Position numbers and translations under genes: made by a program. The notes below the pieces were generated by a model that saw only the letters and a list, made by a program, of their open reading frames with translations, made no database searches and was not told the DNA's origin. Of a stretch of 64,000 nt of DNA, positions 12,705-47,385 are shown piece by piece (position 1 is the first letter of the stretch; each line of letters begins with the position of its first letter). This stretch comes from a virus, in IMG/VR virus record IMGVR_UViG_3300007609_000008, positions 32,001 to 96,000 of that record; one strand, written 5' to 3'.

Positions 12705-14161
12705 TGAAACTTAAGCACGGTGGTGAATCTAACTCTAATAACATAAGAGTTCTTGAAGACAAGCGAGACTATATTAATAATATTAGTCCTTCTTTTTGTT
12801 CTGCTAAGTGGTTGCAGACTACACTTTATTTACAGAATGGATACAATCATTCTTGTCACCACCCTTCACCTCACAAAATTCCTTTAGAAGAAGTACAGGC
12901 TAATCCTGCTGCCTTGCACAACAGTGCATTTAAAAAAGAACAGAGAGCTAAAATGCTCAAAGGCGAGAGACCAGCCGAGTGTGATTACTGTTGGAATATT
13001 GAAGATTTGGGAAAAGGTTACTTCTCAGATAGACACTACAAAACTTCTGATTATTGGGCATGGCATAGAGTAGATGAACCCGCTGAATCTGATCCGTATG
13101 ATGATATCTTTCCTTCTTACTTAGAGATTTCATTTTCTAACGCTTGTAACTTCGCATGTGCATATTGTACACCCGAAGCAAGCTCTAAATGGATGAAAGA
13201 CATAAAATCACATGGTGCATATCCTGTTGAGTTTGGTAGCCATTCTCTAGATAGTCTTAGAGATTTACAAAAAATTCCTTATAAAACTGATGAACATAAT
13301 CCTTATGTAGAAGCATTTAACAAGTGGTTTCCAGATGCTCTTCCTCATCTCAAGGTTTTCCGCATAACTGGCGGCGAACCTACAATGAGCAAAGACTTTT
13401 GGAAATCATTAGATTATATTTTACAAAATCCGAGAGATGATTTAGAAATTTCCATTAATACAAATCTTGGTGTACCAAAAGAACTAATTGACAGGTTGAT
13501 TGAGTATGCTAAAAGACTTGATACCGCATGTAAAGAGTGTGTTATATTTACAAGTTGCGAGGCATACGGTGAACAAGCAGAATATGTCAGAGACGGTTTA
13601 GACTATGATTATTGGTATGGCAATGTAAAAAGAATTCTAGAAGAGACTGAATGCAAAGTAGTTACTATGACTACTATAAATGCGTTGAGTCTTCCTTCTT
13701 TTACTCGCTGGTTAAAAGACATGATGGATCTCAGAATCGAATATAATCAGTTAGGTTTTATGAACAGAACTCCTATTAGTTTTAACTACTTGAGATTTCC
13801 TCCCCATCTGCAAGTATCAATACTTCCTGATTATATACGAGACAAATATGCTTCCGATATTGAAGAATATGTTTTGTCATGGGGAGAACTCGTTACTCCT
13901 TTGCCGAATGCAAAGTTTTACTTGGAAGAGATTGATCAGGTAAAAAGATTTTGTGACTACATGAGACAGGATACGACATCTGGTCCAAAATACAGAGAAA
14001 ACTTTATGCAGTTTATACAACATTATGATCTTCGCAGAGACAAAGATTTTATTTCTACTTTCCCTGAATATGAAGATTTTTATGAAGAATGGGCAATCGA
14101 GTATGCCCCTAAACTTAAAGCAGATTATATGGATTTGATAGAAGTTATTGAAGTAAAATGA
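12704..14161 (+). CDS. radical SAM protein 1 (subfamily A)
   Basis: CNFACAYC and ITGGEP; N-terminal FCSAKW...SCHHP...CDYCW auxiliary ligands. Confidence 0.92.
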   Translation: MKLKHGGESNSNNIRVLEDKRDYINNISPSFCSAKWLQTTLYLQNGYNHSCHHPSPHKIPLEEVQANPAALHNSAFKKEQRAKMLKGERPAECDYCWNIEDLGKGYFSDRHYKTSDYWAWHRVDEPAESDPYDDIFPSYLEISFSNACNFACAYCTPEASSKWMKDIKSHGAYPVEFGSHSLDSLRDLQKIPYKTDEHNPYVEAFNKWFPDALPHLKVFRITGGEPTMSKDFWKSLDYILQNPRDDLEISINTNLGVPKELIDRLIEYAKRLDTACKECVIFTSCEAYGEQAEYVRDGLDYDYWYGNVKRILEETECKVVTMTTINALSLPSFTRWLKDMMDLRIEYNQLGFMNRTPISFNYLRFPPHLQVSILPDYIRDKYASDIEEYVLSWGELVTPLPNAKFYLEEIDQVKRFCDYMRQDTTSGPKYRENFMQFIQHYDLRRDKDFISTFPEYEDFYEEWAIEYAPKLKADYMDLIEVIEVK

Positions 14162-40406: not shown

Positions 40407-40853
40407 TCAGATTCCAAGTTCTTTCTCAGTAATAATCATAAATTCCCAGTTTCTATCAAGACAGAATTCTTTAGCTGCTTCCCACTTTGCTAGATTTACG
40501 CCCCACTGTTTGACTTCGTTGATGAATCTTTTTGTAGTTCTTTTAGGTTTTTTGGGTTCTTGTGTAAATCGTTTAGGCTTTACTTCAACTAAACAATATC
40601 TAACCTTGTCTTTGCTTCTGACTTTCACAAAGAAGTCAACGAAATATCTGTGTACTTTGTTGTCTAATGGTGAACGATAAGGAATCACAATTTCTTCTGA
40701 TCCCCACTCTAAAACTGAGCCACTAATATCACACCAATTCATGAACTTGAGTTCGTAGCTAGAACGATAAATAATTTGTGTTACATTGCCTTTGTACTTT
40801 GCAGGATTTCTTGGCTGAAATCTGCCCGAATAAACTTCTTTTGAATATGTCAT
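40407..40853 (-). CDS. gp4: head completion nuclease gp4
   Basis: YSGRFQPRNPAKYKGN, YRSSYE, WGSEE, HRYFVDF, VEVKP and NLAKWEAA. Confidence 0.95.
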   Translation of the reverse strand: MTYSKEVYSGRFQPRNPAKYKGNVTQIIYRSSYELKFMNWCDISGSVLEWGSEEIVIPYRSPLDNKVHRYFVDFFVKVRSKDKVRYCLVEVKPKRFTQEPKKPKRTTKRFINEVKQWGVNLAKWEAAKEFCLDRNWEFMIITEKELGI

Positions 40854-40872: not shown

Positions 40873-40880
40873 TATAAATA
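40873..40880 (+). promoter_or_regulatory. T4-type late promoter TATAAATA
   Basis: Exact octamer 41 bp upstream of ATG 40922. Confidence 0.75.
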
Positions 40881-40921: not shown

Positions 40922-41449
40922 ATGGCCACTATAGTTACAAGAGCGAGTCTTCCAAGAGCCCTTACCACTGAGGAAATGGATGCTAACTTTACTAATTTGA
41001 ATGATGAACTGGCAGCAGTCGATTCTGCTGGTAAACTTGATGCAGCAGACGGCACTGCAACAGGAACATTGACCGCAGAAGATATCGTTGCAGATAATGT
41101 GACTGCTGATCTTAAAGGCTACGGCGAAGCAATGCTGACTACTAGCTCCGCTTCAGGTGCAATCAGTCTAGATTTATCTGCTGCTAATATATTTAAACTA
41201 GAATTGGCCGGAGATGTCACTGTAACATTTACAAATCCTCCTGAAGCAGGTTCTACTTCTGTAGCAACAATTATCGCAATTCAAGATGGCTCTGGTGGAC
41301 ACTCAATTACATGGACAGATGGAATTTTTGCAGGCGGCGTTGCTCCTCCTGATTCTACAGGAGCAAACGAAGTCGATATATGGACTGCTTTCACATATGA
41401 TCAAGGCACTTCATATGTGGTTTCTTTATCGATGAAGGATGTTAGCTAA
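40922..41449 (+). CDS. virion structural / tail-fibre-associated protein
   Basis: N-terminal TRA...LT.EEMDANF motif and C-terminal SLDLS...QDGSGG.SITW...DI beta domain, both recalled from phage tail proteins; late promoter. Confidence 0.7.
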   Translation: MATIVTRASLPRALTTEEMDANFTNLNDELAAVDSAGKLDAADGTATGTLTAEDIVADNVTADLKGYGEAMLTTSSASGAISLDLSAANIFKLELAGDVTVTFTNPPEAGSTSVATIIAIQDGSGGHSITWTDGIFAGGVAPPDSTGANEVDIWTAFTYDQGTSYVVSLSMKDVS

Positions 41450-43014
41450 TGCCAATTGGTAAGTTTGGATTAGAAAAAACCTGGAGAGCTAGTGGTACTG
41501 GTACTACTACTGTTAATACTTCTGGTAATTTTGATGTGCCATTCGGAAAACATGATATCACAGTAGAGGGTAAAGGTGGCTCAGGTACTGCCGCTGTTCC
41601 CTCTAACGTTGCATCTTATAATGCCCCAACACCGGGCAACGTAGCGTCTTATAATGCCCCAACACCGGGCAACGTAGCGTCTTATAATGCAGAGTCTGGT
41701 GGTAACGTTGCTACTTACAATTCAGAAGTAGCCGGCAATCCTGCAACTTACAATCCTGAGTCAGGTGGAAATGCTGCAACTTACAATGCTGACACGCCTG
41801 GTAACCCAGCAACTTACAATCCTGAAACGCCTGGTAACCCAGCAACATACAATGCTATAACTTACAATGCACCGACTTTTGAGCCTGGAAATGAGTCTGG
41901 TGGCGGCAATGTAGCGTCATTTAATTTAGCATTCTTTAGTCCAGGAAATCCGACTTATAATTCAATAAGTTACAATGCACCGACTTTTGAACCTGGCAAT
42001 GTGTCTGGTGGTGGTAATGTTTCTGGTGGTGGTGATGTTGCATTTAGTAATCCACCTACGTACAATGCTGTAACGTATAATGCACCATCGTTCGAACCTG
42101 GCAATGTGTCTGGTGGTGGTAATGTAGCGTCTTATAACTCTCCTACTAACACTCCGGGCAATGCGGCATCGTATAATGCACCATTGTTTGTTCCGGAGAT
42201 TATATATGGCCCAGGATCTGGAATACCAAACGATCCATCAGTATATGAGCCTGGTAATCCGACAAGTTATAATCCACCAACATCAACACCTGGCAACCCA
42301 GCATCATACAATCCTATAACGTATAATGCACCATCGGTAACACCTGGTAACGTATCTGGTGGTGGTAATGTTGATTCGCCTGGGACAACAAACTACACTC
42401 CGACAACTTATAATCCAATAACATATAATGCACCTAGCGTAGTGCCTGGCAACCAAGTAGGCGGAAATTTTGCTGGAAACAATTCAGGAACCTTTTCCCC
42501 AAGCAATCCAGCAACGTACAATCCTATAACTTATAATGCACCATCGATAGAGCCTGGTAACGTATCTGGTGGTGGTAATGTTGCGTCAAATAATTCTCCT
42601 ACTCCAGGTACTGTTGCAACTTATAACTCACCAATAGCTGGAAATGTGGCATCATATAACCCACCTACCGGAGGGAATGTAGCGACATATAATACAGGAG
42701 CGAGTAGTAATCCTGCGACATATAACCCAGAGATACCAGGAAATCCTGCTACATATAATGCAGAGGTAACAGGAAATCCTGCAACTTACAATGCGCCTGA
42801 TGGTGGAAACATAGCGACATACAACGCTGCTCAGCCAGCTGTACCTGGAGAACCAGCAACTGCTATGGGAGTAACTTTACCTGGATCTAATGTCGGAGGA
42901 ACAGATGCTCCGTTCACTCCTCCACAAAAAGTATCTTATTATGACTATCCAGATTCAGAAACATATCCAGTTACTGTGCCTGATGGAGGCAATGTAGTCA
43001 TAAAAAGTAATTGA
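41449..43014 (+). CDS. Pro/Tyr/Asn/Gly repeat protein, putative fibre
   Basis: Non-repetitive ends flank ~430 aa of xA(S/T)YN...GN 11-mers and TYNAP..EPGN.SGGGN modules; TAATG-coupled to the upstream gene. Confidence 0.8.
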   Translation: MPIGKFGLEKTWRASGTGTTTVNTSGNFDVPFGKHDITVEGKGGSGTAAVPSNVASYNAPTPGNVASYNAPTPGNVASYNAESGGNVATYNSEVAGNPATYNPESGGNAATYNADTPGNPATYNPETPGNPATYNAITYNAPTFEPGNESGGGNVASFNLAFFSPGNPTYNSISYNAPTFEPGNVSGGGNVSGGGDVAFSNPPTYNAVTYNAPSFEPGNVSGGGNVASYNSPTNTPGNAASYNAPLFVPEIIYGPGSGIPNDPSVYEPGNPTSYNPPTSTPGNPASYNPITYNAPSVTPGNVSGGGNVDSPGTTNYTPTTYNPITYNAPSVVPGNQVGGNFAGNNSGTFSPSNPATYNPITYNAPSIEPGNVSGGGNVASNNSPTPGTVATYNSPIAGNVASYNPPTGGNVATYNTGASSNPATYNPEIPGNPATYNAEVTGNPATYNAPDGGNIATYNAAQPAVPGEPATAMGVTLPGSNVGGTDAPFTPPQKVSYYDYPDSETYPVTVPDGGNVVIKSN

Positions 43015-43039
43015 CAATTAACTAAATATGTTATAGAAT
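43011..43039 (+). promoter_or_regulatory. sigma70 promoter overlapping a late-type CTAAATA
   Basis: TTGACA 43011-43016, 17 bp, TAGAAT 43034-43039; CTAAATA at 43022-43028. Confidence 0.6.
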
Positions 43040-43065
43040 TGTATATTATTTAAAAGTGAAAAATT

Positions 43066-43656
43066 ATGACTGCAATAAACAAGTATGTTGGTGAGTTACA
43101 GTGTTACGCTCACATGAATCGAGCTTTCACAGAAGAAGAAGTCGAAAAAATTCGAGAAATCGAAGAGCTTCAATCATTTCAAAAAGGCACAGTTGGTGGC
43201 AAACTAACTGGTGCTGCATTAAAAAAAGCCAGAGATTCTGACGTATTCTTTATGGACCATGACGATAATACGGATTGGTTATATCAAAGAATGTCTTATC
43301 TAATAGCACAAGCTAATAAAGACCACTTTTTATATAATGTAGATGATTTTGGTCCAATGCAGTATACTAAATATCAGATAGATGGTCATTATACATGGCA
43401 CTGGGATGTTTTCTTTGGCTGGCAGAAAAACACAAGAAAAATATCAGTTGTAGTATTTCTCAACGAACCTGAAGATTATGAAGGCGGAGAATTTGAAATA
43501 GTCACTAATGGAAATCTAGATGAAATCAAACAGTTAAAGCCTTTGAAGGGCGATGTATTGTTTTTTGCATCTTGGATGCCACATCGAGTTTTGCCTGTAA
43601 CTTCAGGCGAAAGAAATACACTTGTTACTTGGGTAACTGGTCCTAGAGAATCGTAA
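43066..43656 (+). CDS. prolyl-4-hydroxylase-like 2OG-Fe(II) oxygenase
   Basis: HYTWHWD (HxD), RKISVVVFLN, YEGGEF, GDVLFFAS..PHRV.PVTSGERNTLVTW. Confidence 0.92.
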   Translation: MTAINKYVGELQCYAHMNRAFTEEEVEKIREIEELQSFQKGTVGGKLTGAALKKARDSDVFFMDHDDNTDWLYQRMSYLIAQANKDHFLYNVDDFGPMQYTKYQIDGHYTWHWDVFFGWQKNTRKISVVVFLNEPEDYEGGEFEIVTNGNLDEIKQLKPLKGDVLFFASWMPHRVLPVTSGERNTLVTWVTGPRES

Positions 43657-44384
43657 TGTTTAATTTTTTGAAAAGAAAAGAAAAGCCAATAATTGAATTT
43701 TATTGTCATCCAAATGTTGAGGGTACTATTCCAACTCCTAGGCCAGCGAGCAAACATGTACCAGACTGGTTTAAAAGTATACCACCTACAATGCCTGGGC
43801 GTGATGCTAGAAATAGAAAAGGACTCACTGCAAAAAAATGTATGCCAATGCTGGATGCAATGACACTAGGTTATGTTATACCTCTGTGCGGCGATCTTGG
43901 ACTGAAGTCTTCTGAAGACTGTAATACAATTGAAGTTTTTAATCCTGATGAGCTTAAATTGGCAGAGTTTCATGACCTCAATCAGTTGGGGCCAAAAGCT
44001 CCAGGAATGCCAGCACCACCTGTAAAATTTATTAATCATTGGGTGATAAAAACAGCACCAGGCTGGAGCACCCTAATAATACCTCTAGTCAATAATAGTC
44101 TTGCAAATCCTCACTTTACTTGTTTAGGAGGTCTAGTAGACACTGACACCTATCCAAAAGAAATCAACTTTCCTGCTGTCTGGCACACTCCTAATTTTGA
44201 TGGTTTTCTACCTGCAGGCACTCCATTGGTTGTAGCTATACCTATAAAAAGATCTTCTGTTCCGAGAGAATGTGTGACTAGACCAATGACGGATAAAGAA
44301 TTTAAAGACATTGATATCATACATCGAAAACAATGTAATAAATTGCATGTGTATACCGATGAATTGAGAGAGAAAAGAAAATAA
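43656..44384 (+). CDS. DUF6065-like protein
   Basis: KKCMPMLDAMTLGYVIP, KFINHWVIKTAPGWS, GLVDTD and GTPLV..IP; family call from recall. Confidence 0.6.
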   Translation: MFNFLKRKEKPIIEFYCHPNVEGTIPTPRPASKHVPDWFKSIPPTMPGRDARNRKGLTAKKCMPMLDAMTLGYVIPLCGDLGLKSSEDCNTIEVFNPDELKLAEFHDLNQLGPKAPGMPAPPVKFINHWVIKTAPGWSTLIIPLVNNSLANPHFTCLGGLVDTDTYPKEINFPAVWHTPNFDGFLPAGTPLVVAIPIKRSSVPRECVTRPMTDKEFKDIDIIHRKQCNKLHVYTDELREKRK

Positions 44385-45106
44385 TGTTTTCAATATTTAA
44401 GAAAGAAAAAGATATCGAGTTTGTAGACGTAACTAGAAATGCGTATTTAGATTTTCCTGTTATGATGGCTAAAGATGTTCCTGTGCTAGGAAAAGACGAA
44501 AGAATAGAGAAGTTTGGAGTAAATAAATTTGTACATTGTCCTGGTATGGTAGATTATGCTAAACTAGGTTACGTAATACCTGCTTGGTGCGATATGCGAA
44601 TTAAAGCAAATAAAGCAGGAGTAGTGGCTACTATTGGAGACAACAGAAGAGGCACAAGAGGATTTCATTTACCTAAAAAAATGGATCAAACTATTGTCGA
44701 TGGAATAATAGAACCAGAAGACGGTGTTCCCTTGACAGTTCTTCATATAGGCGCCCCTTGGAATATTTTTGTAAATAAAAATATATCTGCATTACTGATG
44801 CCTGCAGTTTATCATTCGAAGGTTTTTGATGATTTACATGTCTGGCCAGGAGTAGTTGATTACAAAAATTTTACTACTGCTAATTTAATTTGTACTCCGA
44901 AGCGCAAGTGTGAATTTACAATTAAAGCAGGCGAGCCACTCATACATGTGATACCTTTTCTAAATACTCATTTAGAAGCTGGATATGGTCCAGGAACTGA
45001 ACAACAGGTAGATAAGAGTAGAAATACTATACTAGGAGGAGACAGTCAATATTACAGAAAGTTTCTTTCTGTAAAAAAAATATTTAGACTGGAAAAAGAA
45101 GAATGA
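44384..45106 (+). CDS. DUF6065-like protein, paralogue of the previous gene
   Basis: HCPGMVDYAKLGYVIPAW, APWNI, GVVDY and GEPLIHVIP align with the previous gene. Confidence 0.6.
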   Translation: MFSIFKKEKDIEFVDVTRNAYLDFPVMMAKDVPVLGKDERIEKFGVNKFVHCPGMVDYAKLGYVIPAWCDMRIKANKAGVVATIGDNRRGTRGFHLPKKMDQTIVDGIIEPEDGVPLTVLHIGAPWNIFVNKNISALLMPAVYHSKVFDDLHVWPGVVDYKNFTTANLICTPKRKCEFTIKAGEPLIHVIPFLNTHLEAGYGPGTEQQVDKSRNTILGGDSQYYRKFLSVKKIFRLEKEE

Positions 45107-46053
45107 AAATATTTGTTAGCATAGTATCTTTTAGAGATCCCTTATTAAAATACACTGTTAAAAGCCTGTTAGAAGAACAGTCAGGCGACAATGAAATTAT
45201 AATAGGCATATTCGAACAGACAAAATTAGAAGACAGTCTTGTTACTATCGATAAAGAGCTAACAGAGAAGCATAATATTAGATATAAGCGAATTGATCCT
45301 GAGTATGCAGCAGGAGTAGTTTGGGCCAGAAAAATAAATGCAACTCAAATTGAAGATGAAGACTTCTTCTATCAAGTAGATTCACACATTCTATACGATA
45401 GAAACTGGGACAGATACTTGTTGCAAGATTGGGAACTCGCTAGACAAAAAGCAGAAAGTAGTAGAGTAATTTTGACTGCGGCATGTTATATTTACACGCT
45501 CGATGAGGACGGCATTCCTAATAAAGTAACACATAAAGATAATCCATACACCACTTCTTCTAAGTATTTTACTTTCCAAAGACACAATAGATTACCTGCT
45601 GCTCATGGTGAATGGATACCTAAGACTGATGAGGTCATGCCAGCAATTCATATTTTTGCAGGCAATTTTTTTGCTCCTGTAAAGTGGGTTGATGATGTAG
45701 GGTATGACGCTAGAATATTCTTCGAAGGCGAAGAGCAATATATGGTATTAAAATCTTTCATACAAGGTTGGAATTTATATCATTCACGAGAAATGCATTG
45801 TTATCATTATGCAGAAGCGCACAATCACGTAACAAAGCACTGGATAGATCCTGTTTCAAACAATTACACTACCATGATGGCAAAGGGACTCTTGTATTGG
45901 AAGAAATTTTTAGAGAGCATATCCGAAGAAGACTTAAAAAAATATTATGAATATTCTGGTGTTGATTATATAAATGGTATAATTGAAGAAAGAGCATTCA
46001 CCCGCCAAATCATAGATCCTAACGCAACTGGTACTCCAGACTCAGAAGACTAG
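45103..46053 (+). CDS. Gnt1/GT60-like hydroxyproline GlcNAc-transferase
   Basis: IFVSIVSFRD, A.G..WAR, QVDSH...WD, VILT and FFEGEE match the motif series recalled for Dictyostelium Gnt1. Confidence 0.8.
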   Translation: MKIFVSIVSFRDPLLKYTVKSLLEEQSGDNEIIIGIFEQTKLEDSLVTIDKELTEKHNIRYKRIDPEYAAGVVWARKINATQIEDEDFFYQVDSHILYDRNWDRYLLQDWELARQKAESSRVILTAACYIYTLDEDGIPNKVTHKDNPYTTSSKYFTFQRHNRLPAAHGEWIPKTDEVMPAIHIFAGNFFAPVKWVDDVGYDARIFFEGEEQYMVLKSFIQGWNLYHSREMHCYHYAEAHNHVTKHWIDPVSNNYTTMMAKGLLYWKKFLESISEEDLKKYYEYSGVDYINGIIEERAFTRQIIDPNATGTPDSED

Positions 46054-46072: not shown

Positions 46073-46080
46073 TATAAATA
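46073..46080 (+). promoter_or_regulatory. T4-type late promoter TATAAATA
   Basis: Exact octamer upstream of gp48. Confidence 0.75.
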
Positions 46081-46113: not shown

Positions 46114-47385
46114 ATGCCAGATTTTTTCACCAATCTAGTAGGTCAATTCGGAGATGCTCTTGAAAGTGGAGCTGAGGCTGTTTCGAATGCTGTTTCGGAT
46201 ATTGCGGATGAGGCATTCGACAAAGCTAGAGCATTAGGCAGTAAACTAGACGGAGAAAATGTCTGGGAAGACGATCAGCCTCTGACTGGTGACGAAAAAA
46301 ATAGACTAGACAAGTATATTTTCTCATCTGCAACTTCGCTTGAATATCCTTTAAAAGTAGGCGAAGAAGATTCAAGAGCGCCAGAACAACTTCACAGCGT
46401 CCGTTTTAGTATTCTTGCAAGAGAAAATAGTAGAGTTGCTCAAGAAACTACCGGTCTTGGTCAAGATCTGGAACGAGAATGGGCAGGACCAGTTGCACCA
46501 AGTACGACTCTCGCAGAATCAGCACCTGTAGATGACACTGATCGAAACAGGCTATCAGCAGATCAAAGACGAGCAGTTGCCCTTCTGAGTTCTGGTGTAG
46601 CAGGCGCAGCTCTTGGACTTTCTGTCGTAGGATCAAAAGGAAATCTACCAGGAAAGGCTGTTTCTGGCTTACTAGGCGGCACATTGGCAGCTGGAGGCGG
46701 AGCTGCCGTGATAGAGAGTGTAAGAACTGTCAGAACCCTTGGTCAAATCAATCTTTTCATATCTCAGCCACCTATCTCTAAGTACAGCGCAAACTGGGAA
46801 AACAAAGAATTAGGAGCACTTGCAGGACTAAGTGACACTGAATTCAATATTTCTGATCTTTTGAAGGGCGCTGGAGGAGTTGGAGAATTAGGAATAAGAG
46901 GCGCAATTAAAGCAGCAGCTAACTTGCCTTCACAATTTGGTTTAACAGGAGAACTAGGAGCGGCTGTTGATTTAGCTTCTGCTAAGGTCGCTAACCCATA
47001 CAAAGAACAACTATTTACTAGTATGGGATTTCGTCAATTCGCATTTAATTATAAATTTGCTCCCAAAAATTTACCAGAATATGAAAATGTAAAAAGGATT
47101 ATTGATCTGTTTAAGTATCATATGCATCCTGAAAATGATCCTACCGGTCTATTCTTAGAATATCCTTCTGAATTTGAAATAGAATATTGCTATAAAGGAA
47201 ACAGAAACAAACATCTAAATAAAATATCTGCGTGTGCTTTAACAGACATAAAAATAACATATGGCAATCAAGATGCTTTTACTACATTTATGGGAACAGA
47301 TGGTGCACCAGTAGAAATTAATTTAGAGTTAGCATTTACCGAACTTGAAACCCTAACCAATAATAGAATAGCGGATGGATTCTAA
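46114..47385 (+). CDS. gp48: baseplate tail-tube cap gp48
   Basis: NPYKEQLFTSMGFRQFAFNYKFAPKN...IIDLFKYHMHP, YPSEFEI and F.ELE.LT. Confidence 0.88.
   Translation: MPDFFTNLVGQFGDALESGAEAVSNAVSDIADEAFDKARALGSKLDGENVWEDDQPLTGDEKNRLDKYIFSSATSLEYPLKVGEEDSRAPEQLHSVRFSILARENSRVAQETTGLGQDLEREWAGPVAPSTTLAESAPVDDTDRNRLSADQRRAVALLSSGVAGAALGLSVVGSKGNLPGKAVSGLLGGTLAAGGGAAVIESVRTVRTLGQINLFISQPPISKYSANWENKELGALAGLSDTEFNISDLLKGAGGVGELGIRGAIKAAANLPSQFGLTGELGAAVDLASAKVANPYKEQLFTSMGFRQFAFNYKFAPKNLPEYENVKRIIDLFKYHMHPENDPTGLFLEYPSEFEIEYCYKGNRNKHLNKISACALTDIKITYGNQDAFTTFMGTDGAPVEINLELAFTELETLTNNRIADGF

What the first reader, a model, noticed from the sequence alone, without database searches (positions are those of the whole stretch)
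40922..46053. Candidate hydroxyproline O-GlcNAc glycosylation system for a virion fibre
Seen: a late-promoter structural gene, then a Pro-rich repeat protein, a prolyl-hydroxylase-like 2OG oxygenase, two DUF6065-like genes and a GT with the Gnt1/GT60 motif series. The last four are coupled by overlaps, and the block lies between gp4 and gp48. Known: in Dictyostelium and Toxoplasma a prolyl 4-hydroxylase and Gnt1 act in sequence to hydroxylate a Skp1 proline and add GlcNAc. Inference: the phage encodes writer enzymes beside their likely substrate, giving an O2- and 2OG-dependent glyco-fibre that could set host range or stability. This is the most coherent enzyme-plus-substrate system in the window.
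Basis: partly seen in the sequence, partly recalled or inferred. Interest (0 to 1): 0.88.

Follow-up and report, generated by a model that had tools for sequence, protein, structure and literature searches.

The report
Phage fibre hydroxylase–glycosyltransferase tailoring cassette
A marine T4-like phage carries, next to a tail-fibre gene and a hypervariable repeat protein, a conserved set of enzymes (a prolyl-hydroxylase-like oxygenase, two unknown dUTPase-fold proteins and a protein-type sugar transferase) that most likely decorate the fibre chemically; the same cassette recurs in dozens of uncultured phages, which would give the abundant but unexplained viral 'prolyl hydroxylase' genes a job.

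Summary
On the + strand between gp4 and gp48 lie a 175-aa fibre-like protein, a 521-aa repeat protein with an 11-aa unit, a catalytically complete PF13640 2OG/Fe(II) oxygenase, two DUF6065 paralogues and a PF11397 (GT60) glycosyltransferase. A T4-type late promoter motif precedes the block, and the last four genes overlap.

The cassette is a widespread phage module. Over 53 distinct DUF6065-A sequences from IMG/VR at 50-94% identity:
- oxygenase upstream in 49/51
- repeat-family protein in 43/44
- fibre gene in 38/39
- DUF6065-B in 48/52
- GT60 in only 32/45
- a sulfotransferase nearby in 7/45

An Undibacterium prophage has the GT-less core. DUF6065 models as a dUTPase-like fold. The GT's nearest solved folds are polypeptide GalNAc-transferases.

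The 'fibre-tailoring enzymes beside their substrate' idea is well supported. The specific Hyp-O-GlcNAc chemistry is not tested. Proline is not conserved in the repeats, and Thr/Ser are equally available acceptors. The oxygenase's closest solved relatives are PiuC/PKHD hydroxylases, whose substrate I could not establish.

No description of the module was found in the literature searched.

Verdict: real, coherent, probably a new variant of hydroxylation-plus-decoration systems. Interest 0.75.

The parts
40873..40880 (+). T4-type late promoter motif TATAAATA (extended CTGTTATAAATAAA) upstream of the block
   Evidence: the identical extended motif precedes gp48 at 46073
40922..41449 (+). 175-aa short fibre-like protein. 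Its C-terminal domain is the one found at the C-end of 230-1900-aa fibre ORFs that precede the module in other phages
   Evidence: phrog_9017, 7760 and 3904 tail fibre hits; fibre upstream in 38/39 loci
41449..43014 (+). 521-aa 'capped repeat' protein: conserved N-cap of about 50 aa, variable core of 11-aa units (x4-G-N-x-A-S/T-Y-N), conserved C-cap of about 55 aa. Proposed substrate and distal fibre component
   Evidence: no Pfam, PHROG or NCBIfam hit
43011..43039 (+). sigma-70-like promoter TTGACA-17-TAGAAT (11/12) in the 51-nt gap before the oxygenase gene
   Evidence: hexamers conserved in L001, L003, L008 and L009, with L008/L009 reading TTGACA-17-TATAAT
43066..43656 (+). 196-aa 2OG/Fe(II) oxygenase of the P4H/PKHD type (PF13640) with invariant H112-x-D114, H173, R183
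43656..44384 (+). DUF6065-A (242 aa), dUTPase/dCTP-deaminase-like fold; the constant neighbour of the oxygenase
44384..45106 (+). DUF6065-B (240 aa), divergent paralogue (26% identity to A) that keeps the family's invariant residues
45103..46053 (+). 316-aa GT60-family (PF11397) GT-A glycosyltransferase with invariant D93-S94-H95 and later invariant His residues
40407..40853 (-). gp4-like head completion protein (left boundary)
   Evidence: phrog_218 8e-61, PF08722
46114..47385 (+). gp48-like baseplate tail tube cap (right boundary), with its own late promoter motif at 46073-46080
   Evidence: phrog_230 2e-49, PF11091

Best explanation
This is a tail-fibre tailoring cassette. A short fibre protein and a 'capped' hypervariable repeat protein are made from a T4-type late promoter. 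The repeat protein is probably the distal, host-facing part of the fibre. Four translationally coupled genes follow, with an extra sigma-70-like promoter of their own, so the enzymes may already be present when the substrate appears.

Proposed mechanism:
1. The P4H-family 2OG/Fe(II) oxygenase works with one or two DUF6065 proteins. DUF6065 has a dUTPase-like, presumably trimeric fold, and is proposed as a substrate-presenting or nucleotide-binding partner.
2. Together they hydroxylate residues of the repeat protein. Proline is the most likely target. Asn or aromatic beta-carbons are not excluded.
3. The GT60 enzyme, a polypeptide-type retaining GT-A, then adds a HexNAc (probably GlcNAc) to the new hydroxyl or to neighbouring Ser/Thr.
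4. In sister cassettes a sulfotransferase takes or shares the decorating role.

Shown here: gene families, intact catalytic motifs, folds, promoter motifs, and conserved synteny. Inferred: the substrate, the modified residue, the sugar, the order of steps, and the role of DUF6065.
For: Families and motifs:
- PF13640 oxygenase with an invariant HxD...H...R in 20 diverse sequences.
- PF11397 in 19/19 diverse GTs with an invariant DxH.
- The GT model (pLDDT 92) is closest to ppGalNAc-T protein glycosyltransferases, Foldseek E 4e-11.

Synteny over 53 distinct DUF6065-A at 50-94% identity: oxygenase 49/51, repeat family 43/44, fibre 38/39, DUF6065-B 48/52, GT60 32/45, sulfotransferase 7/45.

Other context:
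- A reciprocal scan from the repeat protein's N-cap returns the same enzyme set.
- The same core sits behind the fibre gene of an SU10-adaptor-type prophage in Undibacterium.
- Neighbours in variant loci are further fibre, chaperone and tropism genes: Phage_tail_APC, Peptidase_S74, Mtd_N, DUF4376.
- Late promoter motif and gene overlaps; conserved sigma-70-like promoter before the oxygenase.
- The alternative decorating enzymes (GT60 or sulfotransferase) on one constant oxygenase core fit a 'make a hydroxyl, then decorate' logic.
Against: - No biochemical evidence at all.
- Proline is not conserved at any repeat position and falls to about 6% in L081/L084, which keep the full enzyme set.
- Ser/Thr is common next to YN, so the GT may not need the oxygenase.
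- Nine of 45 loci have neither GT60 nor sulfotransferase, so the oxygenase/DUF6065 pair has a function of its own.
- The nearest solved relatives of the oxygenase are PiuC/PKHD hydroxylases, ahead of proven P4Hs, and I found no paper on PiuC's substrate.
- DUF6065 homologues stand alone beside ribonucleotide reductase in haloarchaeal virus HF2 and cyanophage S-RIM4, which hints at nucleotide metabolism.
- The loci are related, so the synteny counts are not independent events.
- The repeat protein is not shown to be in the virion.
Confidence: 0.5

Rival explanations
1. Two independent modifications. GT60 glycosylates Ser/Thr of the repeat or fibre protein directly, in the mucin-type manner of the Thr-specific GT60 enzymes and the GT27 ppGalNAc-Ts. 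The oxygenase/DUF6065 pair separately hydroxylates something else in the fibre, for example for stability. No Hyp-sugar linkage is made.
For: A Ser/Thr often precedes the aromatic-Asn pair, while Pro is variable. The GT's nearest folds are Ser/Thr ppGalNAc-Ts. GT60 is dispensable to the core (32/45), and the oxygenase/DUF6065 pair occurs without it. From my own knowledge, CAZy lists both Thr and Hyp acceptors for GT60.
Against: Where present, GT60 is translationally coupled to the oxygenase/DUF6065 genes, with a 4-nt overlap in the window, and almost never appears with the repeat protein without them. The interchange with a sulfotransferase suggests a shared acceptor hydroxyl.
Confidence: 0.2
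2. The enzymes act on another target, not the repeat protein. Candidates are the conserved C-terminal domain of the preceding fibre protein, another virion protein, or a host protein or envelope component (an 'AMG'/moron that happens to sit in a fibre hot-spot).
For: The fibre C-domain is as constant a neighbour (38/39) as the repeat protein. P4H-like genes are usually filed as AMGs of cryptic role (PMC9301287). Fibre regions are known insertion hot-spots (my knowledge).
Against: The order fibre, repeat protein, oxygenase, DUF6065 is kept across T4-like myoviruses and a podovirus-like prophage, at down to about 35% identity. The repeat protein's caps are conserved while its core is free to vary, as expected for an enzyme-docking or assembly handle.
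Confidence: 0.13
3. A nucleotide or DNA modification module. The dUTPase-fold proteins and the oxygenase act on a pyrimidine nucleotide or on DNA, and the GT glycosylates the hydroxylated base. This would be analogous to the base J or 5hmC-glycosylation pathways.
For: DUF6065 has a dUTPase/dCTP-deaminase-like fold with a motif-III-like GLVDTDxY segment (by eye). Stand-alone homologues lie next to ribonucleotide reductase in HF2 and S-RIM4. The oxygenase gives weak hits to nucleic-acid oxygenase families (PF09859, E 0.007). No canonical dUTPase was found in the held 125 kb.
Against: The oxygenase is PF13640, not a TET/JBP or AlkB family member. The GT is GT60 with polypeptide-GT folds as nearest neighbours. 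DUF6065 gives no sequence match to PF00692. The cassette always sits inside fibre clusters, behind a late promoter, and travels with the repeat protein.
Confidence: 0.06
4. DUF6065 proteins are non-enzymatic trimeric fibre-assembly chaperones. The oxygenase and GT are add-ons of minor importance, so the cassette is chiefly an assembly unit.
For: The position right after fibre genes is typical of assembly chaperones. In L067 a Phage_tail_APC chaperone follows DUF6065-A. Non-enzymatic dUTPase-fold viral proteins exist: herpesvirus pp71 and ORF10 appear among the fold hits.
Against: The oxygenase is the tightest partner of DUF6065 (49/51) and keeps every catalytic residue. DUF6065 has many invariant polar residues (D67, D80, H106, S138, D162), more than a scaffold would need.
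Confidence: 0.06

Closest known systems
Skp1 hydroxyproline glycosylation pathway of Dictyostelium and Toxoplasma (PhyA prolyl 4-hydroxylase plus Gnt1, GT60)
   Same: A P4H-superfamily 2OG oxygenase is paired with a PF11397/GT60 glycosyltransferase. The chemistry would be O2- and 2OG-dependent.
   Different: There is no Skp1-like target. The putative substrate is a hypervariable repeat protein next to a phage fibre gene. Two DUF6065 genes lie between oxygenase and GT. The GT is optional and can be exchanged with a sulfotransferase. The oxygenase is nearer by sequence to PiuC/PKHD hydroxylases than to PhyA/PHD-type enzymes. No later sugar-extending GTs are present.
Chlorovirus PBCV-1 prolyl 4-hydroxylase, which acts on Pro-rich viral repeats (Eriksson et al. 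1999, cited in PMC9301287), and mimivirus L230 collagen lysyl hydroxylase/glucosyltransferase (my knowledge)
   Same: The virus encodes a 2OG hydroxylase, and in mimivirus also a glycosyltransferase, for its own repetitive structural proteins.
   Different: Those are giant eukaryotic viruses whose substrates are collagen-like or (PAPK)n repeats. Here the virus is a tailed phage with an 8-11-aa N/P/G/T/Y-rich repeat and no Gly-X-Y pattern. It also has DUF6065 partners and separate small enzymes.
Polypeptide GalNAc-transferases (GT27) and Thr-specific GT60 alpha-GlcNAc transferases of trypanosomatids
   Same: These are the nearest solved folds, with a GT-A fold, a DxH metal motif and a protein acceptor rich in Thr, Ser and Pro.
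   Different: The phage enzyme has no lectin domain, is about 316 aa and cytoplasmic, and is genetically coupled to an oxygenase.
Mycobacteriophage virion glycosylation by phage-encoded glycosyltransferases (my knowledge; not retrieved here)
   Same: Phage-encoded GTs decorate the phage's own virion proteins.
   Different: The GT families and targets differ (capsid and tail tube C-terminal extensions). No hydroxylase or DUF6065 is involved.
Trimeric dUTPase / dCTP deaminase superfamily (for DUF6065)
   Same: Same fold, with VIA-align Z up to 10.5 and a clear gap below the superfamily. A motif-III-like G-L-V-D-T-D-x-Y and a motif-II-like P-G-W-S-T are visible by eye.
   Different: There is no sequence-level match to PF00692. 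DUF6065 is about 100 residues longer and has no recognisable motif V (Gly-rich C-terminal arm). It is genetically tied to a protein-type oxygenase inside fibre clusters.

Membership tests
GT60 / Pfam PF11397 'GlcNAc' glycosyltransferases | Match to the family HMM above the curated cut-off | tested here: met
   94.5 bits against a cut-off of 21, E 1.2e-26. All 19 diverse cassette GTs match, best E 3.4e-34. Profile positions 2-47 and 92-284 of 352 are covered.
GT60 / Pfam PF11397 'GlcNAc' glycosyltransferases | GT-A fold with a DxH (DxD-like) Mn2+ motif and a downstream His ligand | tested here: met
   Invariant D93-S94-H95 plus invariant H168, H183 and H235. The model has pLDDT 92 and its nearest folds are DxH-type ppGalNAc-Ts. 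Which His is the metal ligand was not determined.
GT60 / Pfam PF11397 'GlcNAc' glycosyltransferases | UDP-GlcNAc donor, retaining alpha-linkage | not testable with these tools
   Needs an enzyme assay.
Gnt1-type (hydroxyproline-specific) subgroup of GT60 | Acceptor is 4-hydroxyproline made by a partner prolyl hydroxylase | not testable with these tools
   Only the genetic coupling to a P4H-family oxygenase is seen. No solved GT60 relative was detectable by sequence. No reference Gnt1 sequence was on hand for a tree.
Skp1 modification pathway | A Skp1 substrate | tested here: not met
   None of the block's proteins has a Skp1 or any related Pfam domain. The only candidate substrate is the repeat protein.
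Prolyl 4-hydroxylase / P4Hc-type 2OG oxygenases (PF13640) | Family HMM above cut-off and a HxD...H Fe(II) triad plus a basic 2OG-binding residue | tested here: met
   PF13640 at 70.7 bits against a cut-off of 27. H112, D114, H173 and R183 are invariant in 20 sequences.
Prolyl 4-hydroxylase / P4Hc-type 2OG oxygenases (PF13640) | Peptidyl-proline as substrate | tested here: inconclusive
   Best solved relatives are PiuC/Sbal_3634 PKHD-type hydroxylases (1e-7). Proven P4Hs, including viral and bacterial ones, come at 3e-4 to 6e-3. The nearest NCBIfam is PRK05467/YbiX-type, below its cut-off. Proline in the candidate substrate is enriched but not positionally conserved.
DUF6065 (PF19541) | Match to the family model | tested here: inconclusive
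   The window proteins give no hit in the held Pfam copy, even at E 10. Homologues at 55-65% identity carry a precomputed PF19541 hit, and one is named DUF6065 by JGI. Both window proteins match phrog_7084 (4e-46 and 3e-21).
dUTPase / dCTP deaminase superfamily | Shared fold | tested here: met
   Foldseek gives probability 1.0 and E 1.5e-4 to dUTPases. VIA-align gives Z 10.5, rmsd 3.0 over 121 residues to 3h6x. Ranks 1-22 are all from this superfamily, then Z drops to 3.8. The model's pLDDT is 80.
dUTPase / dCTP deaminase superfamily | Sequence motifs I-V / match to PF00692 | tested here: not met
   No Pfam hit at E 10 or below. A PF00692 search of the whole record finds nothing at E 1 or below, and the record includes these genes. 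Only motif II- and III-like segments are seen by eye.
Collagen-like (Gly-X-Y) P4H substrates | Gly at every third residue | tested here: not met
   The repeat unit is 11 aa (33 nt) with a G-N-x-A-S/T-Y-N core and no triplet Gly periodicity.

The most novel reading that the evidence does not exclude
Tailed phages of aquatic bacteria carry a dedicated, modular 'fibre-coding' system. A hypervariable low-complexity receptor-binding protein has conserved N- and C-caps that serve as docking handles. It is hydroxylated by a minimal P4H-like oxygenase whose specificity subunit is a new class of dUTPase-fold protein (DUF6065). The new hydroxyls are then glycosylated (GT60) or sulfated, depending on the lineage. 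This would reclassify a large share of the abundant viral 'P4H auxiliary metabolic genes' as virion-maturation enzymes, make phage adsorption O2- and 2OG-dependent, and give the first protein-directed role for a dUTPase-fold family.
Probability: 0.3. Interest if true: 0.88.

Novelty: new variant of a known kind. Interest (0 to 1): 0.75.

Why it matters
P4H-like 2OG oxygenases are among the most frequent 'auxiliary metabolic genes' in pelagic viromes. They occurred at 62% of Baltic water stations, and that paper says how viruses use them 'remains cryptic' (PMC9301287). A second paper notes that PHROG 61 oxygenases resemble EGLN3 structurally and are widespread in marine phages (PMC12774648).

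This cassette links one such oxygenase clade to a specific candidate substrate and to partner enzymes. The open question becomes directly testable with four small genes and one repeat protein in E. coli.

If the reading is true, it would be the first hydroxylation-dependent decoration of a tailed-phage fibre. It would add glycosylation and sulfation as variables in host range for uncultured aquatic phages, and tie adsorption competence to oxygen and 2OG supply. It would also assign a function to DUF6065, a family with a dUTPase-like fold and no literature.

Tried and rejected
Searches that found nothing:
- blastn of the block against INPHARED phages: no match.
- tblastn of the GT: only 23% matches to longer GTs of Xanthomonas jumbo phages in an unrelated context beside a carbamoyltransferase. 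This says nothing about the cassette.
- PDB sequence searches for the GT, single sequence and profile: nothing.
- Pfam, NCBIfam and PHROG scans of the repeat family, 20 members in all: nothing. One incidental DUF4214 hit and one phrog of unknown function.
- ESM Atlas for the repeat protein: only a weak 0.78 lead to 'glycine-rich domain' PF21722. I could not confirm it, and the Atlas's own model has pLDDT 0.38.
- ESM Atlas for DUF6065: no usable hit.
- Literature searches for DUF6065, PiuC substrate, PF11397, and phage prolyl hydroxylase with tail fibre: no description of this module. One search failed on syntax.

- The genome-contig scan gave only two loci, a short MAG contig and one prophage, so no cellular non-phage context for DUF6065 was obtained.
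- Both structure-prediction jobs went to DUF6065-A and the GT, so the oxygenase and the repeat protein were not folded.

Ideas rejected:
- A collagen-like substrate: there is no Gly-X-Y pattern.
- 'Pro-rich repeat' as the defining feature of the substrate family: not conserved.
- YN as a universal repeat motif: absent in the PGNP-type variants L024 and L066.

Full report
**1. What is there**

The window is part of a 125-kb IMG/VR virus record, about 76% complete. It comes from a divergent marine T4-like myovirus. Its gp48 is at best 35% identical to that of Pelagibacter phage HTVC008M, and the block has no DNA match in INPHARED.

Six + strand genes lie between gp4 (40407-40853, minus strand) and gp48 (46114-47385):
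- 40922-41449: 175 aa, with tail-fibre PHROG hits to its C-terminal half.
- 41449-43014: 521-aa repeat protein.
- 43066-43656: PF13640 oxygenase.
- 43656-44384 and 44384-45106: two phrog_7084 paralogues, 26% identical to each other.
- 45103-46053: PF11397 GT.

Gene 1 overlaps gene 2 by 1 nt. Genes 3 to 6 overlap by 1, 1 and 4 nt.

A T4 late-promoter motif (CTGTTATAAATAAA) lies about 40 nt before gene 1. It recurs before gp48 and nowhere in between.

The only sizeable gap, 51 nt before the oxygenase, holds the best sigma-70-like match in the region: TTGACA-17-TAGAAT, 11 of 12. Its hexamers are kept in four relatives even though the spacer differs. L008 and L009 read TTGACA-17-TATAAT.

**2. The individual proteins**

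*Oxygenase.* It matches PF13640 at 2e-19 and phrog_61. H112-x-D114, H173 and R183 are invariant in 20 sequences down to 35% identity, so it should be active. Its nearest solved relatives are PiuC/Sbal_3634 'PKHD-type' hydroxylases (1e-7). Bona fide prolyl 4-hydroxylases follow at 3e-4 to 6e-3. The nearest NCBIfam is the YbiX/PRK05467 group, below its cut-off.

*GT.* It matches PF11397 at 94.5 bits against a cut-off of 21. All 19 diverse cassette GTs match. D93-S94-H95 and several later His residues are invariant. The AF2 model has pLDDT 92. Its best PDB neighbours are polypeptide GalNAc-transferases, at E 4e-11 and TM about 0.6 on the query. That argues for a protein acceptor.

*DUF6065.* The window proteins hit nothing in the held Pfam copy. 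Relatives at 55-65% identity carry PF19541. The model (pLDDT 80) has a dUTPase/dCTP-deaminase-like fold. VIA-align gives Z 10.5, and ranks 1-22 all belong to that superfamily before a drop to Z 3.8. Foldseek gives probability 1.0. By eye, G-L-V-D-T-D-x-Y-P-K-E resembles dUTPase motif III and P-G-W-S-T resembles motif II. There is no HMM-level match to PF00692.

*Repeat protein.* It has no hit in any library. It consists of:
- a conserved N-cap of about 50 aa;
- a core of 11-aa units (33-nt tandem repeats) with the constant part G-N-x-A-S/T-Y-N;
- a conserved C-cap of about 55 aa.

**3. The cassette is widespread**

A profile scan of IMG/VR with DUF6065-A found 142 relatives, of which 80 loci were kept.

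Mapping the window's proteins onto them shows one co-linear order at 30-57% identity: fibre, repeat protein, oxygenase, DUF6065-A, DUF6065-B, GT60.

With proper denominators over 53 distinct DUF6065-A sequences:

| Neighbour | Found / loci long enough to see it |
|---|---|
| Oxygenase within 1 kb upstream | 49/51 |
| Repeat-family protein | 43/44 |
| Fibre gene | 38/39 |
| DUF6065-B | 48/52 |
| GT60 | 32/45 |
| Sulfotransfer_2 gene nearby | 7/45 (3 together with GT60) |
| Neither GT60 nor sulfotransferase | 9/45 |

Further points:
- The reciprocal scan, seeded with the repeat protein's N-cap, returned the same enzyme set for every clear hit that extends far enough downstream.
- Where blastp missed the repeat protein, the slot is still filled by a protein with the same caps and a different low-complexity core.
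- In cellular genomes the only real hit is a prophage in Undibacterium sp., with a capsid and an SU10-type adaptor nearby. It has fibre, capped repeat protein, oxygenase, DUF6065-A and DUF6065-B, and no GT.
- Neighbours in variant loci are fibre chaperones, further fibres and tropism-determinant domains.
- No cultured phage in INPHARED has the cassette. DUF6065 alone occurs in HF1/HF2-type haloarchaeal viruses and, distantly, in a few cyanophages. In the two contexts I examined (HF2 and S-RIM4) it lies near ribonucleotide reductase genes.

These counts come from related contigs. They are not independent events.

**4. What the comparison says about the mechanism**

The constant core is fibre C-domain + capped repeat protein + oxygenase + DUF6065-A. 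The decorating enzyme varies: GT60, a sulfotransferase, both, or neither. This pattern fits an oxygenase that creates a hydroxyl on a fibre component, which different lineages then glycosylate or sulfate.

It does not fix the residue.
- Core proline ranges from about 6% (L081, L084) to 31% (L024).
- No repeat position is reliably Pro.
- The most constant feature is an aromatic-Asn pair, enriched 2-5 fold in most members but absent in PGNP-type cores.
- Ser/Thr frequently precedes it.

Hyp-O-GlcNAc is therefore one of several options. The others are direct Thr/Ser-O-HexNAc, hydroxylation of Asn or an aromatic beta-carbon, or a Pro in the caps (for example the conserved Y-P-D).

The role of DUF6065 is inferred only. 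The oxygenase is a bare catalytic domain of 196 aa, and DUF6065 is its invariable, often overlapping neighbour. I therefore favour a substrate-presenting or cofactor-binding partner. A nucleotide-directed activity cannot be excluded.

**5. Comparison with the known**

The Skp1 pathway shares the enzyme pair but not the substrate, the DUF6065 genes or the modularity. PBCV-1 P4H and mimivirus L230 show that viruses hydroxylate, and in mimivirus also glycosylate, their own repetitive structural proteins. Those are giant eukaryotic viruses with different repeats. Mycobacteriophage virion glycosylation lacks a hydroxylase.

Full-text searches found no description of this cassette or of DUF6065. One paper states that the viral use of P4H 'remains cryptic' (PMC9301287).

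**6. Verdict**

The finding is real, and the cassette is coherent and conserved. I put about 0.5 on 'fibre-tailoring by hydroxylation plus decoration of the repeat protein', and about 0.3 on the specific Hyp-HexNAc linkage within that.

It is best filed as a new variant of known hydroxylation-glycosylation systems, with an unexplained new component (DUF6065). Interest is 0.75.

Noticed in passing
window 43011-43039: Near-consensus sigma-70-type promoter (TTGACA-17-TAGAAT) just upstream of the oxygenase gene, inside a late structural operon. The hexamers are conserved in four relatives despite spacer changes. This suggests the tailoring enzymes may be made earlier than, or independently of, their late substrate.
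   Followed up: partly
L015:7365-7988, L024:7307-8008, L059:6658-7365, L123:9161-9811 and 12802-13674: Sulfotransfer_2 (PF03567) genes are inserted between the oxygenase and DUF6065-A in cassette variants. Most of these lack GT60, and no other GT was seen nearby in the ORFs scanned in L015, L024 and L059. This hints at sulfation as an alternative decoration.
   Followed up: partly
L091 (Undibacterium sp. Rencai35W, NZ_JBMPPC010000001.1 813672-826364): Prophage with a capsid and an SU10-type adaptor, then fibre, capped repeat protein (210 aa), oxygenase, DUF6065-A, DUF6065-B and a DUF4376 protein. It is the only carrier found in a cultured organism, so it is a possible experimental system.
   Followed up: partly
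L085 (Halorubrum phage HF2, HrrHF2_475) and L086 (Cyanophage S-RIM4, RW110999_204): Stand-alone DUF6065 homologues (34% and 21% identity) with no oxygenase or GT annotated in the neighbouring genes. Both lie close to ribonucleotide reductase genes. In HF2 the gene also sits at the end of the tail module.
   Followed up: no
L038-L057 family, e.g. L040:13651-14864 (minus strand): A second, divergent oxygenase + DUF6065 pair (33% and 38% identity) lies about 5 kb downstream of the main cassette on the opposite strand.
   Followed up: no
L078:1474-9540; L128/L130:6989-11866: Duplicated modules. L078 has repeat protein, oxygenase and GT60, followed by repeat protein, oxygenase, DUF6065-A and DUF6065-B. 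L128 and L130 have two tandem repeat-protein genes (748 and 850 aa) before one enzyme set.
   Followed up: no
L003:4485-5909 (IMGVR_UViG_3300017751_000016): In this close relative the repeat-protein gene is split into two ORFs (232 and 176 aa) with a gap of about 200 nt. This is either a frameshift or assembly collapse in the repeats, or a real truncation. The repeat protein is also among the least conserved genes of the block between close relatives (57-64% identity, against 90-93% for the oxygenase and DUF6065; gp48 is similarly low at 59-61%).
   Followed up: no
window 46114-47385: The gp48-like tail tube cap is 423 aa, but only residues ~174-422 match the family profile. The N-terminal ~170 residues are an unmatched Ala/Gly/Ser-rich extension.
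   Followed up: no
L004 (Xanthomonas phage XacN1 ORF334-333): The only isolate-phage relatives of the GT (23% identity) are longer GTs in jumbo phages, immediately followed by a carbamoyltransferase. This is a different context from the cassette.
   Followed up: no
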